DNA from: a virus
IMG/VR virus record: IMGVR_UViG_3300030104_002421
Coordinates: 82,189-146,188 of that record
DNA length: 64,000 nt
Reading direction: 5' to 3' (one strand)
Shown one piece after another: positions 35,227 to 60,118 of this stretch. Numbering within the stretch: the stretch's first letter is position 1; each line of letters opens with the position of its first letter. The notes below the pieces were generated by a model. The model saw only the letters and a program-made list of their open reading frames with translations. It did no database searches and was not told where the DNA came from. Both the position numbers and the translations under genes were made by a program.

Positions 35227-35611
35227 AGAACTATCATTGTTAGTATTTTTACTAACATTTATTATAATTGTTTCAGTATGGACAACATCAGCAGCTGCTG
35301 AAGGACCAAAGTATGATTTATCAAAAATGAAGCAGAGACAAGTACCTGCTTATTGTGGAGATACTGGGTTTATGTTTGAAACATCATTAGAATTATTTAA
35401 TGAATTACCAATTGCAGGTGCTGAAGTTAGAACGGCAGGAATGCCAGATGCTCCAATCATAGGTATCATTACTCTAACTTATAACGAAGATAGAGGTTCA
35501 GGTACTGTAATGATGACTATACCAGCAATAGGCGAGACATGTGTTCTAGCATATGGTATGAATTGGCAATTTTATAACGAAATTCATGTTGAAGGTAATG
35601 AGAGTAAATAG
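35213..35611 (+). CDS. Hypothetical exported protein
   Basis: Signal peptide, VPAYCG...CVLAYG. Confidence 0.6.
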   Translation: MKKIKELSLLVFLLTFIIIVSVWTTSAAAEGPKYDLSKMKQRQVPAYCGDTGFMFETSLELFNELPIAGAEVRTAGMPDAPIIGIITLTYNEDRGSGTVMMTIPAIGETCVLAYGMNWQFYNEIHVEGNESK

Positions 35612-35808
35612 TATGGACGGCGGGGCAGTACCGCCCACCTCCACCACAGACACGGGGGTGAAATAGGTTCGACAGCTATTAGAAATCGTGCTGGAGTGGA
35701 TAGTCCAAAGACTTAAAACTAAAATAAAAGCAAACTTTAATGAGTATGCATTAGCAGCGTAGGCTGTTAGGGGTTTGCCTTGTACCTTGCAACAGAAACA
35801 AGGCACCA
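35605..35808 (+). ncRNA. ssrA: Circularly permuted (two-piece) tmRNA, tag (A)ANFNEYALAA
   Basis: Acceptor piece GGCGG-GGCAGTA-CCGCC-CACCTCC-ACCA ends 35646; 7-nt spacer; coding piece starts GGGGGTG at 35654 (G3.U70); tag ORF 35730-35762. Outer ends approximate. Confidence 0.92.
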
Positions 35809-35824
35809 AACAAAGGAGATTGTT

Positions 35825-35959
35825 ATGATTGAAGTATTAGAAATTTTATTACCAGTTGGTATCATAGTTGCATGTGCTTATGGCATTGGGTATCTATCTG
35901 GAAGTGAGGCAACAAGAGAAATTTATAACCCAACATTGAGAAAGAATGATTTAAAATGA
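35825..35959 (+). CDS. Small membrane protein (44 aa)
   Basis: AAGGAG SD; MIEVLEILLPVGIIVACAYGIGYL; ATGA overlap. Confidence 0.6.
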   Translation: MIEVLEILLPVGIIVACAYGIGYLSGSEATREIYNPTLRKNDLK

Positions 35960-38900: not shown

Positions 38901-39751
38901 GTAATTTATTTGTATTAGGTAATGGCGAAAGCAGAAAAAACATACCAGTTGATATGTTAAAGTATTCTGGTAAAGTATGGGGTTGTAATGCCATTTATAG
39001 AGAACATAAACTAGATGGTTTGATTGCAGTTGACCCTATGTTAGAACATGAAATATATCGTAGTGGTTATGCACACGAAAATTCTGTTTACTTTAGAAGT
39101 TGGGATACTATGCCTGCTGAACATTATGATATGATGATAGAGGCACAAACAAGTAACATGAAAAATCCAGAGATAAGAGAGTGGCGATATAATCCAGAAG
39201 GACATTATTTAAGTTTTGTTATACATGGTCAATCTACTGTTGATACAAATAGAGACAGTACAAGATGGAAAGGTGATGGTTTTGAAAATGTTTATGTGAG
39301 TTGGTTATATGGTAAAGATAAAATTACAATGTTAAAAGATATAATGGCAGATTATTATGGCGCTGCTTGGGAAGGTGATGTTATAGGACCAGAAGACCCA
39401 GGCTGGTCATCAGGTGCTACTGCCATGTATGTTTCTTGTAAAGTAGAGAAACCTAAAAAGTGTTATCTACTAGGCATGGACATGTATAGTACAACAGATT
39501 TTATAAATAACTTATATAAAAATTCTTACGGTTACCTAGAAAGCAAGGAAAATGCAGTAACACCACAGAATTGGGTAATCCAGATGGGGCGTGTTATGGT
39601 AAGATTTAAGGATATAGAGTTTATTAAGGTTAATCCTAGTGGAAATAGTGAGATTTCTCAAAGAATGCCACAATGGGATAGTCTTCCAAACATTACATAT
39701 ATGCATATGGAAGAATTTGAAAAAAACTTTAATTTAAGGCTTGACATTTAG
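38897..39751 (+). CDS. Rossmann-like protein (Maf/MptE/sialyltransferase-like)
   Basis: VLGNGESR, WGCNAIYRE, WSSGATA, YLLGMD. Confidence 0.55.
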   Translation: MSNLFVLGNGESRKNIPVDMLKYSGKVWGCNAIYREHKLDGLIAVDPMLEHEIYRSGYAHENSVYFRSWDTMPAEHYDMMIEAQTSNMKNPEIREWRYNPEGHYLSFVIHGQSTVDTNRDSTRWKGDGFENVYVSWLYGKDKITMLKDIMADYYGAAWEGDVIGPEDPGWSSGATAMYVSCKVEKPKKCYLLGMDMYSTTDFINNLYKNSYGYLESKENAVTPQNWVIQMGRVMVRFKDIEFIKVNPSGNSEISQRMPQWDSLPNITYMHMEEFEKNFNLRLDI

Positions 39752-39769
39752 CACAATTCGTGTTATAAT
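39741..39769 (+). promoter_or_regulatory. Consensus sigma70 promoter
   Basis: AGGC-TTGACA-N17-TATAAT. Confidence 0.85.
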
Positions 39770-39775
39770 GTTAAT

Positions 39776-39990
39776 AATAATAGCAAAAAGAACTAATTAC
39801 TCTTTTTGAATAGTGCAAGGAAGAGGGTTTCACCAGAGGCTCGAACTTGACTTCTCAGGGGTGGTACCCAGGTCAGTTGTGGAAAACACAAAGGGCAATA
39901 TCTCAAATACCAAGAGGGAGAAGGTTAAACTGATTTTAGGACTGGAATCCGGTTCAGTTTTTGTGGGTAATTCCATAGTCCCACCTATTT
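39776..39990 (+). ncRNA. Unidentified structured non-coding RNA (about 210 nt)
   Basis: GC-richer intergenic tract after a perfect promoter, six or more stems, two loop-loop complementarities. Confidence 0.65.
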
Positions 39991-58023: not shown

Positions 58024-59057
58024 ATTTTTTTATAGGAGTAATTGAAGACCGCAATGACCCAGAACAGCTAGGGCGTTTTCGTTGCCGTGTATTAGGGTTG
58101 CATACTGAGGATAAAGTGTTATTGCCTACAAGCGACCTGCCGTGGGCGACTGTGTTAATGCCTTCTGGTGGTAACTCTGGTCTAGGACAGACACCCCCTT
58201 TCTATGTACATGGTACTTGGGTCTATCTTACTTATAGAGATAAGGATAAACAGGAACCTATCATCCATGGAGCGCTAGCGGGCAAGCCAAGCCGTGTGGC
58301 AAACAAAGAGTTAGGATTCAATGACCCGGATGGCGTGTACCCTAAGCTGGCCAATGAGCCAGACACAAACGAGTTAGCCAGAGGGTCTCTCACAGCAGTC
58401 AACCCAGTCAATAGGAACAGTATTCGTATTACCGGTGTGGCAACGGCGGACTTTGATGGCATTGACGCTGAGAACAGCGCCTCAGGCAGTACCGTAGACC
58501 AATCAGCGGGGGGCAGTTGGGACATGCCTACCGTAGTGAGTGGCACCTACAAGCCGGAGTACCCATTCAACAAGGTCTTTGCGAGTGAGACCGGCCATGT
58601 CCTAGAGTTTGATGACACGGCAGACCAGAAGCGTCTCCACCTCAGTCATAGTGCAGGCTCCTACCTAGAGTACAGTAACGATGGCACCCTTGTGAGCCAT
58701 GTTATATCAGATAAGTATGATGTTGTCAACAGCAATCTCTATGTATCTGTAGGAGGCAATGAGGTTCACAGTACAGACGGCTCACTTAAAGTATTTGCCA
58801 ATAAGAGCTTGACAAGTGGCAACAATTATGATATAGAGGTTGGCGCAGGGGCGAACATCAACATCATGGTACGAAGCGGCGATATGAACATGCACATACT
58901 AGGCAATGTCAATCAAAGTATAGACGGCGATTTCAATGTGAGCTGCGATAACTTTACCATAGACGCTAGTAGAACGGCAAAGATAACAAGTAGAGATATG
59001 AAACTTGTTGGTAGTGATACCGTAGATGTAGATGGTGGGACTATAGACTTGAACTAG
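58020..59057 (+). CDS. gp5: Baseplate hub spike protein (gp5, no lysozyme domain)
   Basis: GVIEDRNDPEQLGRFRCRVLGLH, LPWA, YPFNKV..ETGHVLEFDDT, IDLN end. Confidence 0.9.
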   Translation: MNFFIGVIEDRNDPEQLGRFRCRVLGLHTEDKVLLPTSDLPWATVLMPSGGNSGLGQTPPFYVHGTWVYLTYRDKDKQEPIIHGALAGKPSRVANKELGFNDPDGVYPKLANEPDTNELARGSLTAVNPVNRNSIRITGVATADFDGIDAENSASGSTVDQSAGGSWDMPTVVSGTYKPEYPFNKVFASETGHVLEFDDTADQKRLHLSHSAGSYLEYSNDGTLVSHVISDKYDVVNSNLYVSVGGNEVHSTDGSLKVFANKSLTSGNNYDIEVGAGANINIMVRSGDMNMHILGNVNQSIDGDFNVSCDNFTIDASRTAKITSRDMKLVGSDTVDVDGGTIDLN

Positions 59058-59144
59058 TCGTATCAAAAACTGGAGCGTAATGCTTAATCTATAAATGCAA
59101 TAGACATTTTTGGTATACAGCCCACACACTAAAACTGGAGCAAT

Positions 59145-59642
59145 GTGAAAGACTTAAAGACTATTATAGAATCCAATCTGTATAAAATTTCATCTCAACC
59201 CAAATGGGATAACGCCTACTTTCTACCTATTAAACAAGCGAGTACAAGTGATAAAGGTCGCTTTGGTCAATCTGTCTTTGTAGATATACTGACAGAAATA
59301 GGATACAATGCGGTCATAGAGAATAATGGCATAGGTGATTATGATGTAAAGATACGACAATTACCTACAAATATAAGAGTGGAAGTCAAAACAGCGACTA
59401 TAGATGTAGGAGGTTCTTTTCAGTTTAATTCTATTAAGAAAGGTAATTACATGTATGATTATGTATTTTGTTTAGGCATATCGTATAATGAGTTATATTA
59501 TGATTTTATATCAAAAGATTTTGTGGAGAAAACATTGACAACCAATATGACCACGGAAGGTGGTGGTTTCAAATATACGAGACGACTGGATAGACAATTG
59601 ACATTTGAGAATTTAGAAAACACATTAAATACATTCATATAA
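59145..59642 (+). CDS. Restriction-endonuclease-like PD-(D/E)XK protein
   Basis: KGRFGQ, GDYDV, RVEVKTAT, FQFNSI, YDYVFCLGI; GGAG SD + GTG. Confidence 0.6.
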   Translation: MKDLKTIIESNLYKISSQPKWDNAYFLPIKQASTSDKGRFGQSVFVDILTEIGYNAVIENNGIGDYDVKIRQLPTNIRVEVKTATIDVGGSFQFNSIKKGNYMYDYVFCLGISYNELYYDFISKDFVEKTLTTNMTTEGGGFKYTRRLDRQLTFENLENTLNTFI

Positions 59643-59645
59643 ATA
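59638..59645 (+). promoter_or_regulatory. T4-type late promoter
   Basis: TATAAATA 5 nt before tRNA-like gene. Confidence 0.7.
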
Positions 59646-59650
59646 GAATT

Positions 59651-59744
59651 GCGGTCTTGGTGGAAAAAGGTAGACACGCCTTCTACTACGAATTGAAGGT
59701 GACTGAATAAGTTATTGTAGGATCATACCCTACAGACCGTACCA
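59651..59744 (+). tRNA. Non-canonical tRNA-like RNA (Leu-type body, ACG in extended anticodon arm)
   Basis: GCGGTCT/AGACCGT + ACCA, GGTGGAAAAAGGTAGACAC D arm, CCTTC/GAAGG, long variable arm, GTAGG-ATCATAC-CCTAC. Confidence 0.75.
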
Positions 59745-59746
59745 TA

Positions 59747-59793
59747 GAGAGGTGTGTAGTAAGACAGGAGGGACTTACTTCCCTCCGCCTCTC
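59747..59793 (+). ncRNA. Compact three-way RNA element with complementary loops
   Basis: GAGAGGTG/CGCCTCTC encloses TGT-AGTAAG-ACA and GGAGGGA-CTTACT-TCCCTCC. Confidence 0.5.
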
Positions 59794-59809
59794 ACACATA
59801 AATAGTGGC

Positions 59810-60118
59810 ATGATTACTCTTACAGATAACGCTTACGAACATCTACGAGACCTGAGGGACCATCATGGTATGAAGTATGTACGACTAGAGGTAACCTCTG
59901 GTGGTTGTGCTGGGTTTGAATATAAGTGGTCGTTTACGGATGATGAGGCAAGAGACGATAAAGTCTATGATGATGTTCTCATTGTGCATAAAATGTTTGA
60001 GTTATATTTAATGAATACAGAAATAGATTATACAAAAGATGATTTTAATGCTAATCTAACATTTAGTAATCCGGCTGCAAAGAGTAGTTGTGGATGTGGC
60101 ACATCTTTTTCAATATAG
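59810..60118 (+). CDS. A-type Fe-S cluster carrier (IscA/HesB family)
   Basis: ITLTDNA, GGCAGFEY, NPAAKSSCGCGTSF. Confidence 0.92.
   Translation: MITLTDNAYEHLRDLRDHHGMKYVRLEVTSGGCAGFEYKWSFTDDEARDDKVYDDVLIVHKMFELYLMNTEIDYTKDDFNANLTFSNPAAKSSCGCGTSFSI

What the first reader, a model, noticed from the sequence alone, without database searches (positions are those of the whole stretch)
59651..59744. Chimeric tRNA-like RNA: Leu-type body, Arg(ACG) loop, elongated anticodon arm
Seen: intact acceptor stem with A73 and CCA, Leu-like D arm (GGTGGAA..GGTAGACAC) and long variable arm. The anticodon arm is CCTTC-TA-CTACGAA-TT-GAAGG, a canonical Arg CU-ACG-AA loop on a stem two positions too long, and the T loop is ATCATAC rather than TTCRANY. 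It has its own late promoter, and all stems remain paired, arguing against simple decay. Established: bacterial LeuRS ignores the anticodon. Inference: a decoy for anticodon nucleases or tRNA-sensing defences, a non-ribosomal aminoacyl donor, or a mis-decoding tRNA.
Basis: partly seen in the sequence, partly recalled or inferred. Interest (0 to 1): 0.75.

Follow-up and report, generated by a model that had tools for sequence, protein, structure and literature searches.

The report
Non-decoding tRNA look-alike in phage
This marine phage gene makes a small RNA built on a leucine-tRNA frame, with a codon-reading arm two pairs too long that is capped by an exact copy of the arginine-tRNA anticodon loop; related phages conserve it, but it almost certainly reads no codons, so it is a tRNA mimic of unknown job.

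Summary
Window 59651-59744 folds as a class II (Leu-type) cloverleaf with A73-CCA. Its anticodon helix has 7 layers with a U.U mismatch, the loop is CUACGAA, and the T loop is aberrant. It is not a decaying pseudogene. A relative whose flanks are only 79-84% identical carries the RNA unchanged, 94 of 94 bases.

I found 24 distinct family sequences in marine T4-like (pelagimyophage-type) contigs, one per phage record searched. All share the acceptor stem, CCA and a 3' pseudoknot. T, D and V stems covary, but the anticodon arm is swapped:
- 2 are canonical tRNA-Leu.
- 10 are short, mostly tetraloop-capped stubs.
- 8 carry the over-long helix capped by the invariant CUACGAA loop.
- 4 are other forms.

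CGH codons (CGT, CGC, CGA) in this phage align with Arg, never Leu. In one syntenic context the RNA sits 3-26 nt after a two-piece tmRNA. In the window it has its own TATAAATA box 5 nt upstream.

Best reading: a selected, non-decoding tRNA-Leu frame that host tRNA-maturation enzymes could process and stabilise, with a display arm that here mimics the tRNA-Arg(ACG) anticodon loop. The partner is unknown. The nearest known relatives are phage tRNA-like stable RNAs such as T5 RNA1.

The scan had already noted this same RNA type on another genome (e1-5871313).

The parts
59638..59645 (+). T4-late-type promoter box TATAAATA. It ends 5 nt before G1, so the predicted transcription start is at or next to the first base of the RNA.
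   Evidence: Sequence. The motif is not enriched on its own. Relatives keep a TATA-type octamer at the same 5-nt spacing although the surrounding sequence differs. No transcript mapping is available.
59651..59744 (+). 94-nt tRNA-Leu-frame RNA with a 7-bp acceptor stem, a 3-bp D stem, a long variable arm, a 5-bp T stem and an encoded ACCA.
   Evidence: ARAGORN. The family model R1 scores it at 82 bits. It is identical in L082 despite 79-84% identical flanks. T-stem covariation is shown.
59679..59699 (+). Over-long 'anticodon' arm: 5 Watson-Crick pairs, a U.U mismatch, an A-U closing pair and the loop CUACGAA (59686-92).
   Evidence: Six lineages were aligned (A2). The stems differ and stay paired, 5 of 8 pairs change on both sides, and 0 of 500 shuffles reach the score. 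The 9 nt A-loop-U are invariant in that alignment. The 7-nt loop is also kept in L095.
59722..59728 (+). Aberrant T loop ATCATAC. Positions 54, 58, 59 and 60 differ from the family's TTCAAGT or TTCAAAT, while U55, C56 and A57 are kept.
   Evidence: It is unique to this lineage among 24 family sequences and is conserved in L082.
59747..59793 (+). 3' pseudoknot. A closing stem (59747-52 with 59788-93) encloses a hexamer (59758-63) that is complementary to the loop (59774-79) of an inner hairpin (59767-73 with 59780-86).
   Evidence: It is present after nearly all family members, and the hexamer/loop pair takes 7 different complementary sequences. No Rfam family matches it.
59145..59642 (+). ORF165, upstream neighbour of the RNA. 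With the RNA and the pseudoknot it forms a ~650-bp block that is absent from the closest IscA-bearing relatives.
   Evidence: A D...ExK-like motif is seen by eye only. There is no Pfam or PDB match.
59797..60118 (+). A second late-type box (59797-59804) and the IscA-like Fe-S gene (59810-60118), the downstream neighbour of the RNA.
   Evidence: Pfam PF01521. In six relatives the RNA lies just after this gene instead of before it.

Best explanation
The locus encodes a functional small RNA that does not decode.

It descends from a phage tRNA-Leu and keeps the parts that tRNA-maturation enzymes recognise: the acceptor stem, A73-CCA, the T arm and the D stem. Inference: these let it be trimmed and stabilised like a tRNA. 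In the window it would be transcribed from its own TATAAATA box, starting at or next to G1. It is followed by a conserved pseudoknot.

The former anticodon arm has become a swappable display arm. Related phages carry a normal Leu arm, a tetraloop-capped stub, or, as here, a helix two layers too long that presents an invariant copy of the tRNA-Arg(ACG) anticodon loop.

Inference: the extra length keeps the loop out of the ribosomal decoding site, so the loop works off the ribosome as a binding site or bait for a factor that reads that loop. Candidates are TadA or an Arg-tRNA-directed anticodon nuclease.

My odds:
- Selected and non-decoding: about 0.85.
- Frame acts as a processing and stability scaffold: about 0.6.
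- Loop acts as a bait for an anticodon-loop reader: about 0.3.
For: Shown:
- The RNA is 94/94 identical in L082. There the flanking genes are 79-84% identical, and the promoter region and 3' pseudoknot are rewritten.
- There are 24 distinct family sequences. The T stem is 100% paired with double changes in 4 of 5 pairs. The D stem also changes on both sides (GTG/CAC to GCG/CGC).
- The over-long arm covaries in 6 aligned lineages around an invariant A-CUACGAA-U. The loop is kept in 8 distinct sequences.
- At orthologous loci the arm is replaced by GNRA- or UUCG-capped stubs or by a canonical Leu arm.
- Each of the six phage records searched holds one family member.
- CGH codons align with Arg 187 of 252 times and with Leu 0 times.
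- The Rfam tRNA model fails on the window RNA. Among family members it passes only the canonical forms, L094 and one of the long-arm forms.
- In six loci the RNA follows a two-piece tmRNA by 3-26 nt on the same strand.
- T5 RNA1, annotated as a tRNA-like stable RNA, matches the family model with a 63-nt insert at the same place.

From established knowledge: TadA accepts an isolated Arg(ACG) anticodon stem-loop, and RNase P does not contact the anticodon arm.
Against: - No binding partner is identified.
- The ten stub-type members have no loop to offer, so the family-level role cannot be the bait.
- A stoichiometric decoy needs high expression, which is unmeasured.
- The phage itself uses about 8 CGH codons per 1000, so titrating TadA would hurt it.
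- With a start at G1, RNase P processing is not obviously needed in the window.
- The invariant acceptor-stem sequence across the family is not explained by a generic scaffold role.
- Part of the family was collected with patterns that fixed the 5' or 3' end.
Confidence: 0.5

Rival explanations
1. The RNA is a pure processing element (tRNA punctuation, like plant-mitochondrial t-elements). Its tRNA shape only directs RNase P and a 3' endonuclease, which cut the transcript. That would set the 3' end of an upstream RNA such as tmRNA and leave the pseudoknot as a protective 5' cap on the downstream mRNA. Under this view the arm has no function.
For: - In six loci the RNA lies 3-26 nt after a tmRNA and is followed by the pseudoknot, then a Shine-Dalgarno sequence and ATG.
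- The window's tmRNA has the same 3' end but runs straight into SD-ATG without the module, so the module is a discrete insert.
- Tetraloop stubs are the commonest arm.
- t-elements are an established precedent (PMC1920247).
Against: - The CUACGAA loop is invariant in 8 distinct sequences whose stems have all changed, and a spacer would not be kept like that.
- In the window a promoter box places the start at G1, so there is nothing upstream to cut off.
- A second promoter box separates the pseudoknot from IscA.
- The variable arm and D stem are also conserved by compensation, although RNase P needs little of them.
Confidence: 0.2
2. The RNA is a non-ribosomal leucine carrier or LeuRS ligand. 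LeuRS ignores the anticodon and charges the frame with Leu. The Leu-RNA then feeds an aminoacyl-tRNA-dependent transferase, or the RNA modulates LeuRS. The altered arm keeps it off the ribosome.
For: - The body is Leu-type: A73, encoded CCA, a 3-bp D stem with GG in the loop, and a long variable arm.
- Canonical tRNA-Leu orthologues exist.
- From established knowledge, E. coli tRNA-Leu lacking its anticodon arm is still leucylated.
Against: - The phage has no Leu/Phe-transferase, ATE/Bpt or FemAB family gene.
- Three long-arm lineages have lost the GG of the D loop, and the window has an extra D-loop base and an altered T loop. In E. coli such changes affect LeuRS recognition.
- The idea does not explain the conserved Arg-type loop.
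Confidence: 0.1
3. The RNA is a decoding tRNA. It reads CGU/CGC/CGA (after A34-to-I editing) and inserts Leu or Arg, or it shifts the reading frame through an enlarged 11-nt loop.
For: - The 7-nt loop has every canonical anticodon-loop feature: C32, U33, ACG, A37, A38.
- ARAGORN calls it tRNA-Arg.
- One long-arm relative passes the Rfam tRNA threshold (L030, 41.9 bits).
Against: - The helix is two layers longer than in canonical members of the same family, with no compensating shortening elsewhere.
- CGH codons are Arg by alignment, never Leu.
- The body is class II, unlike any tRNA-Arg.
- Orthologous loci carry anticodon-less stubs.
- The T loop is aberrant, and the window RNA gets no Rfam tRNA hit.
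Confidence: 0.05
4. The RNA is a decaying tRNA-Leu pseudogene or a passenger of a mobile cassette, with no function.
For: - The closest IscA-bearing relatives (L002, L003) lack the RNA.
- It lies in a ~650-bp insert in a hypervariable region.
- Its arm and T loop are aberrant.
Against: - It is 94/94 identical where the flanks are 79-84% identical.
- The T, D, V and arm stems show compensatory changes.
- Stable tetraloop caps replace the arm instead of random decay.
Confidence: 0.02

Closest known systems
Phage T5 RNA1 (NC_005859 30501-30644, annotated 'tRNA-like stable RNA with unknown functions'). More loosely, T4 species 1 and 2 RNAs (rnaC, rnaD), which I recall from memory and did not test.
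   Same: It has a Leu-type acceptor, D and T frame with the decoding arm replaced. It is phage-encoded and its function is unknown. The family model R1 matches RNA1 at 28 bits, E 8e-7, across the acceptor, D and T arms.
   Different: T5 RNA1 carries a ~63-nt insert, lies inside a tRNA cluster, and shows no CCA at the aligned 3' end. The window RNA has a short hairpin with an anticodon-like loop, an encoded CCA, a 3' pseudoknot and its own promoter box.
Bacterial and phage class II tRNA-Leu, including canonical family members L062 (CAA) and L058 (UAA)
   Same: The acceptor stem, discriminator and CCA are identical, the D arm is the same type, and it has a long variable arm and a 5-bp T stem.
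   Different: The arm has 7 layers instead of 5, the loop carries ACG rather than a Leu anticodon, the T loop is altered, and the Rfam tRNA model fails.
tRNA-Arg(ACG), the TadA substrate
   Same: The 7-nt loop CUACGAA is identical, including C32, U33, A37 and A38.
   Different: tRNA-Arg is class I with a short variable loop and a 5-bp anticodon stem. Here only the loop is Arg-like.
t-elements of plant mitochondria and tRNA punctuation (PMC1920247); MHV68 tRNA-like/pre-miRNA units (recalled from memory)
   Same: A tRNA-shaped, non-decoding element is placed between other RNAs, where RNase P and 3' nucleases could cut. Six family members sit directly after a tmRNA.
   Different: Processing is not shown here. 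The window copy has its own promoter box at G1, and its loop sequence is conserved.
YrlA (bacterial Y RNA) tRNA-like domain
   Same: It is a non-decoding tRNA mimic, found in bacteria and some phages.
   Different: No Rfam YrlA hit was found. No Rsr/Ro partner was looked for. YrlA has no CCA end.
Allo-tRNAs and other natural chimeric tRNAs (Ser or Leu body with a foreign anticodon)
   Same: A class II body carries a non-cognate anticodon-like loop.
   Different: Allo-tRNAs have 8/4 or 9/3 acceptor/T helices and a normal-length anticodon stem, and they decode. Here the split is 7/5 with an over-long arm.

Membership tests
Decoding tRNA (Rfam RF00005) | Score at or above the curated threshold of the tRNA covariance model | tested here: not met
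   No RF00005 hit at gathering or at E<=10 on 59500-59900. Canonical family members score 54-57 bits.
Decoding tRNA (Rfam RF00005) | 5-bp anticodon stem with a 7-nt loop at the standard distance from the D stem | tested here: not met
   The loop is 7 nt, but the helix has 7 layers, two more than in canonical members L062 and L058 of the same family.
Decoding tRNA (Rfam RF00005) | T loop of the T-Psi-C-R-A-N-Y type | tested here: not met
   The window has ATCATAC. All other 23 family sequences have TTCAAGT or TTCAAAT.
Decoding tRNA (Rfam RF00005) | Codons matching the anticodon are translated as the amino acid of the tRNA's identity | tested here: not met
   The body is Leu-type, but CGT/CGC/CGA codons align with Arg 187 of 252 times and with Leu 0 times.
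Bacterial class II tRNA-Leu | A73, 3-bp D stem with GG in the loop, long variable arm | tested here: met
   The acceptor and D arm are the same as in tRNA-Leu(CAA or UAA) of related phages.
Bacterial class II tRNA-Leu | Leu anticodon (NAG or YAA) | tested here: not met
   The loop carries ACG.
Bacterial class II tRNA-Leu | Leucylation by LeuRS | not testable with these tools
   This needs an in vitro charging assay or acylation-sensitive sequencing.
tRNA-Arg(ACG) | Class I body with a short variable loop | tested here: not met
   The variable arm is 15 nt with a 5-bp stem, and the D arm is Leu-type.
Phage tRNA-Leu-frame stable RNAs (T5 RNA1 type) | Leu-type acceptor, D and T frame with the anticodon arm replaced by non-decoding sequence that differs between relatives | tested here: met
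   The 24 family sequences carry 4 kinds of arm on one frame. T5 RNA1 matches the family model.
Phage tRNA-Leu-frame stable RNAs (T5 RNA1 type) | Accumulates as a discrete stable RNA in infected cells | tested here: inconclusive
   Only one low-depth contig from one RNA library, covering 59705-59911, was found. Contigs show neither ends nor transcription.
t-element / tRNA punctuation | RNase P and 3'-nuclease cleavage at the element defines the ends of neighbouring RNAs | not testable with these tools
   Only the placement is suggestive: 3-26 nt after a tmRNA in six loci. In the window a promoter box abuts G1.
Allo-tRNA | 8/4 or 9/3 acceptor/T-stem split | tested here: not met
   The split is 7/5.
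YrlA / Y RNA | Match to the Rfam model, and an Rsr partner gene | tested here: not met
   No Rfam hit in the window. The Rsr gene was not searched for.

The most novel reading that the evidence does not exclude
Marine T4-like phages use a tRNA-Leu frame as a natural RNA scaffold. It displays a translation-inert copy of the tRNA-Arg(ACG) anticodon loop on a deliberately over-long stem. The displayed loop neutralises or hijacks a host factor that reads it, for example an Arg-tRNA-directed anticodon nuclease used in defence, or TadA. This would be a naturally occurring tRNA-scaffolded decoy, exchanged between phages as a cassette.
Probability: 0.22. Interest if true: 0.85.

Novelty: new variant of a known kind. 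Interest (0 to 1): 0.68.

Why it matters
Phage tRNA genes are usually read as codon-usage helpers or as replacements for tRNAs cut by host defences. This family shows a third outcome. The frame of a tRNA is conserved by selection, while the decoding arm is exchanged, capped off, or turned into an exact mimic of another tRNA's anticodon loop that cannot reach the ribosome.

It gives a defined and testable object: about 94 nt, an invariant 9-nt motif, and natural stub variants that serve as built-in controls. That bears on two long-open questions. One is what phage tRNA-like stable RNAs (T5 RNA1, T4 species 1 and 2) do. The other is whether phages deploy RNA decoys against tRNA-directed host factors.

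Its position next to two-piece tmRNA genes also bears on how those RNAs are matured.

There is a practical point as well. ARAGORN annotates these genes as tRNA-Arg, which would mislead codon-usage and host-prediction analyses of marine phages.

Tried and rejected
- **GenBank phages.** blastn of the locus (901 nt and 161 nt) found no match. A canonical member used as query found only generic tRNA-Leu.
- **First pattern scan.** A pattern combining the D arm and the window's own T loop gave only chance hits in coding DNA.
- **ORF165 relatives in viral contigs.** None were found. In the protein database, 50%-identical homologues sit beside a ~330-aa ORF whose FIEPSA-like stretch suggested a methyltransferase to me, but it has no Pfam match. 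ORF165 itself has no Pfam or PDB match. The nuclease reading therefore remains an eye-level guess.
- **Antisense idea.** The complement of the loop is not enriched in the genome: 5+7 sites against about 7 expected per strand.
- **Partner enzymes in the phage.** No Leu/Phe-transferase, ATE/Bpt, FemAB or Rnl1 family was found. This says nothing about host enzymes.
- **Expression.** Twenty runs hold the stretch and only one is an RNA library. Its single 207-nt contig (depth 3.9) covers 59705-59911, which spans the 3' half of the RNA, the pseudoknot and the IscA start. Contigs show neither ends nor transcription, and DNA carry-over is possible. I draw no conclusion from it.
- **Host genomes.** The 5'-half pattern hit only one unrelated MAG tRNA-Leu. 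Relatives cannot be drawn for a virus record, so I could not compare the loop and stem with the host tRNA-Arg.
- **Recoding of Arg to Leu.** Rejected by codon alignment.
- **Literature.** Papers on pelagimyophages and on phage Melnitz mention tRNAs and two-piece tmRNA but not these RNAs. The Lak megaphage 'tRNA introns' are a different, larger kind of insert.

Full report
**The object.** The window is the last 64 kb of a 146-kb, 33% G+C viral record that CheckV rates 99% complete. It has T4-type baseplate genes (gp53, gp5), a two-piece tmRNA and auxiliary genes, including IscA-like, carbamoyltransferase and 2OG oxygenases. This matches the pelagimyophage/Melnitz kind of marine phage described in PMC7029224 and PMC9004378.

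- a 7-bp acceptor stem with a G1.U72 wobble, followed by A73-CCA;
- a 3-bp D stem with a Leu-type loop;
- a 15-nt variable arm;
- a 5-bp T stem;
- an 'anticodon' helix of 7 layers (5 pairs, then U.U, then A-U) under the loop CUACGAA;
- the T loop ATCATAC.

ARAGORN calls it tRNA-Arg(acg). The Rfam tRNA model does not report it even at E<=10. The cloverleaf lies 2.6 kcal/mol above the MFE.

**Local setting.** The closest IscA-bearing relatives (L002, L003, 90% protein identity) go from gp5 through a short repeat-bearing spacer straight to IscA. The window has about 650 extra bases holding ORF165, the RNA and a structured 3' element. Near-identical phages (L025, L026, L072, L084) carry the same RNA, which is uninformative.

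L082 is informative. Its flanking genes are 79-84% identical, it has an extra ORF between the ORF165 homologue and the RNA, and its promoter region and 3' element are rewritten. Yet all 94 bases of the RNA are identical, including the odd arm and the odd T loop. At the flank's level of divergence, 94 unchanged bases are not expected by chance. The alternatives are purifying selection or a very recent transfer of exactly this segment.

**The family.** Three pattern scans, plus a covariance model (R1) built from the first 13 members, gave 24 distinct sequences in marine viral and metagenome contigs. The scans were:
- D arm plus loop;
- 5' half only;
- 3' end only.

All 24 share the acceptor stem, the discriminator and the encoded CCA. 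Nearly all are followed within 0-3 nt by a pseudoknot. In that pseudoknot, a hexamer and the loop of a G+C-rich hairpin are complementary in seven different sequence versions.

The T stem is paired in every member, with changes on both sides in 4 of 5 pairs. The D stem also switches on both sides, GTG/CAC to GCG/CGC. Variable-arm stems change with compensation as well.

The acceptor sequence was fixed by two of the scans. It was not fixed by the first scan or by the model search of the IscA loci, and there it is also unchanged.

Each of the six phage records I could search whole has one family member.

**The arm is what varies.**
- Two sequences are canonical tRNA-Leu(CAA) and tRNA-Leu(UAA). 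ARAGORN places the anticodon at the normal position, and RF00005 scores them at 54-57 bits.
- Ten have a 2-6-bp stub, mostly capped by a tetraloop. The caps include GAGA, GUAA and UUCG, the classic stable caps.
- Four are other irregular forms.
- Eight carry the over-long helix with the CUACGAA loop, among them the window.

In six aligned lineages of this last kind, every stem position has changed while staying paired. Five of 8 pairs change on both sides, 0 of 500 shuffles reach the covariation score, and slid controls collapse. The 9 nt A-CUACGAA-U do not change. The layer beneath them is U.U, G.A or G.U. A seventh stem version (L095) keeps the 7-nt loop with the mismatch moved by one layer.

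Because the 5'-half, 3'-end and model searches did not specify the loop, its invariance is a real observation.

Stub forms and long-arm forms occur at the same syntenic positions in related phages. The arm is therefore exchanged on a constant frame.

**Two genomic contexts.** In the first, the RNA lies in the variable region after gp5 and next to IscA. This is the window's own case, and there a TATA-type octamer sits 5 nt before G1 (TATAAATA in the window). In the second, the RNA lies 3-26 nt downstream of a permuted two-piece tmRNA gene on the same strand and is followed by the pseudoknot, a Shine-Dalgarno sequence and a gene.

The window's own tmRNA (35543-35853) ends with the same hairpin and tail but runs directly into SD-ATG. 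The tRNA-like-plus-pseudoknot unit is therefore a discrete module that is present at one place or the other.

**What it is not.** It is not a recoding or mis-decoding tRNA. The helix is two layers longer than in canonical members of the same family, with nothing shortened in compensation. CGT/CGC/CGA codons, about 8 per 1000, align with Arg in relatives 187 of 252 times and with Leu never. Orthologues without any anticodon loop are maintained.

It is not a pseudogene, as the conservation and compensation above show.

It does not look like an antisense RNA, because the loop complement is not enriched in the genome.

**What it most likely is.** It is a selected, non-decoding tRNA-Leu frame. The conserved parts are those recognised by RNase P, CCA-related enzymes and possibly LeuRS.

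The placement after tmRNA and before a pseudoknot-led mRNA fits a punctuation or scaffold role. The tetraloop caps look like selection for a compact, stable fold.

That role alone does not explain an invariant loop identical to the tRNA-Arg(ACG) anticodon loop across lineages whose stems have turned over completely. I therefore infer that, in this sub-family, the arm is a display arm offering that loop to a protein off the ribosome. TadA, which accepts an isolated stem-loop, and Arg-tRNA-directed nucleases are the obvious candidates from established knowledge. Nothing here identifies the partner.

Some features argue against use by the ribosome and weaken the leucine-carrier rival. The window lineage has an altered T loop and an extra D-loop base. 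Three other long-arm lineages have lost the D-loop GG.

The phage has no Leu/Phe-transferase, ATE or FemAB gene.

**Comparison with known things.** The nearest described objects are phage tRNA-like stable RNAs of unknown function. T5 RNA1 is annotated as such, and it matches the family model over the acceptor, D and T arms with a 63-nt insert where the arm should be.

Earlier notes of this scan describe many phage 'tRNA-Leu frames' with swappable inserts, and one note (e1-5871313) covers this same long-arm, Arg-loop RNA type on another genome. I reached the same family picture independently before reading them. They gave me the T5 lead, which I checked.

I found no paper describing the marine family, the invariant Arg-type loop on an over-long stem, or the tmRNA adjacency.

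**Verdict.** The RNA is a new variant of a known but unexplained kind.

Noticed in passing
window 59747-59793; also after the RNA in L030, L056, L058, L061, L076, L082, L095 and others: A conserved pseudoknot lies directly after the CCA. A 6-bp closing stem encloses a hexamer that pairs with the loop of a G+C-rich hairpin. The hexamer/loop pair occurs in seven different complementary versions. No Rfam family matches it. In several loci it is followed directly by a Shine-Dalgarno sequence and ATG.
   Followed up: partly
L030 1503-1814, L045 3279-3554, L096 2202-2477, L103 2938-3254, L104 5261-5533, L076 6666-6962: Two-piece (permuted) tmRNA genes lie 3-26 nt upstream of the tRNA-like RNA on the same strand. 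The window's tmRNA (35543-35853) has the same 3' end but lacks the module and runs straight into SD-ATG.
   Followed up: partly
window 59145-59642: ORF165 has a D...ExK-like motif (seen by eye) but no Pfam or PDB match. Homologues at 50% identity overlap a ~330-aa ORF of no known family (L028, L029). Its last ~60 nt (59581-59636) are a hot spot of strain differences in otherwise >99% identical phages and in metagenome contigs.
   Followed up: partly
window 59057-59144 and L002/L003 upstream of IscA: Short intergenic repeats ending in ...AAAACTGGAGC flank the point where the ORF165-RNA block is inserted, relative to L002/L003. They recall the mobile promoter/stem-loop cassettes described for T4-type hyperplastic regions (recalled from memory, not tested).
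   Followed up: no
window 39742-39990: A strong sigma-70-like promoter (TTGACA, 17 nt, TATAAT) is followed by about 200 nt of G+C-richer, apparently structured non-coding sequence that ends at a TATAAATA box. This may be an unannotated small RNA. It has no Rfam hit at gathering.
   Followed up: no
L058 4389-5380 (328-kb viral record with terminal repeats): A 290-aa class II aminoacyl-tRNA-synthetase-like gene (PF00152) lies immediately upstream of the canonical tRNA-Leu(UAA) family member. Three more tRNAs lie nearby.
   Followed up: no
L104 7575-7781: A manA RNA motif (RF01745, 61 bits) lies about 2 kb downstream of the tRNA-like RNA in a related phage contig.
   Followed up: no
L061/L069 (RNA at L061 2917-3006): This is a second kind of over-long arm: 8 layers with a G.G mismatch. 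Its loop contains UAG, a Leu anticodon, but has C instead of U at position 33. ARAGORN calls it tRNA-Leu(tag). Its status is unclear.
   Followed up: no
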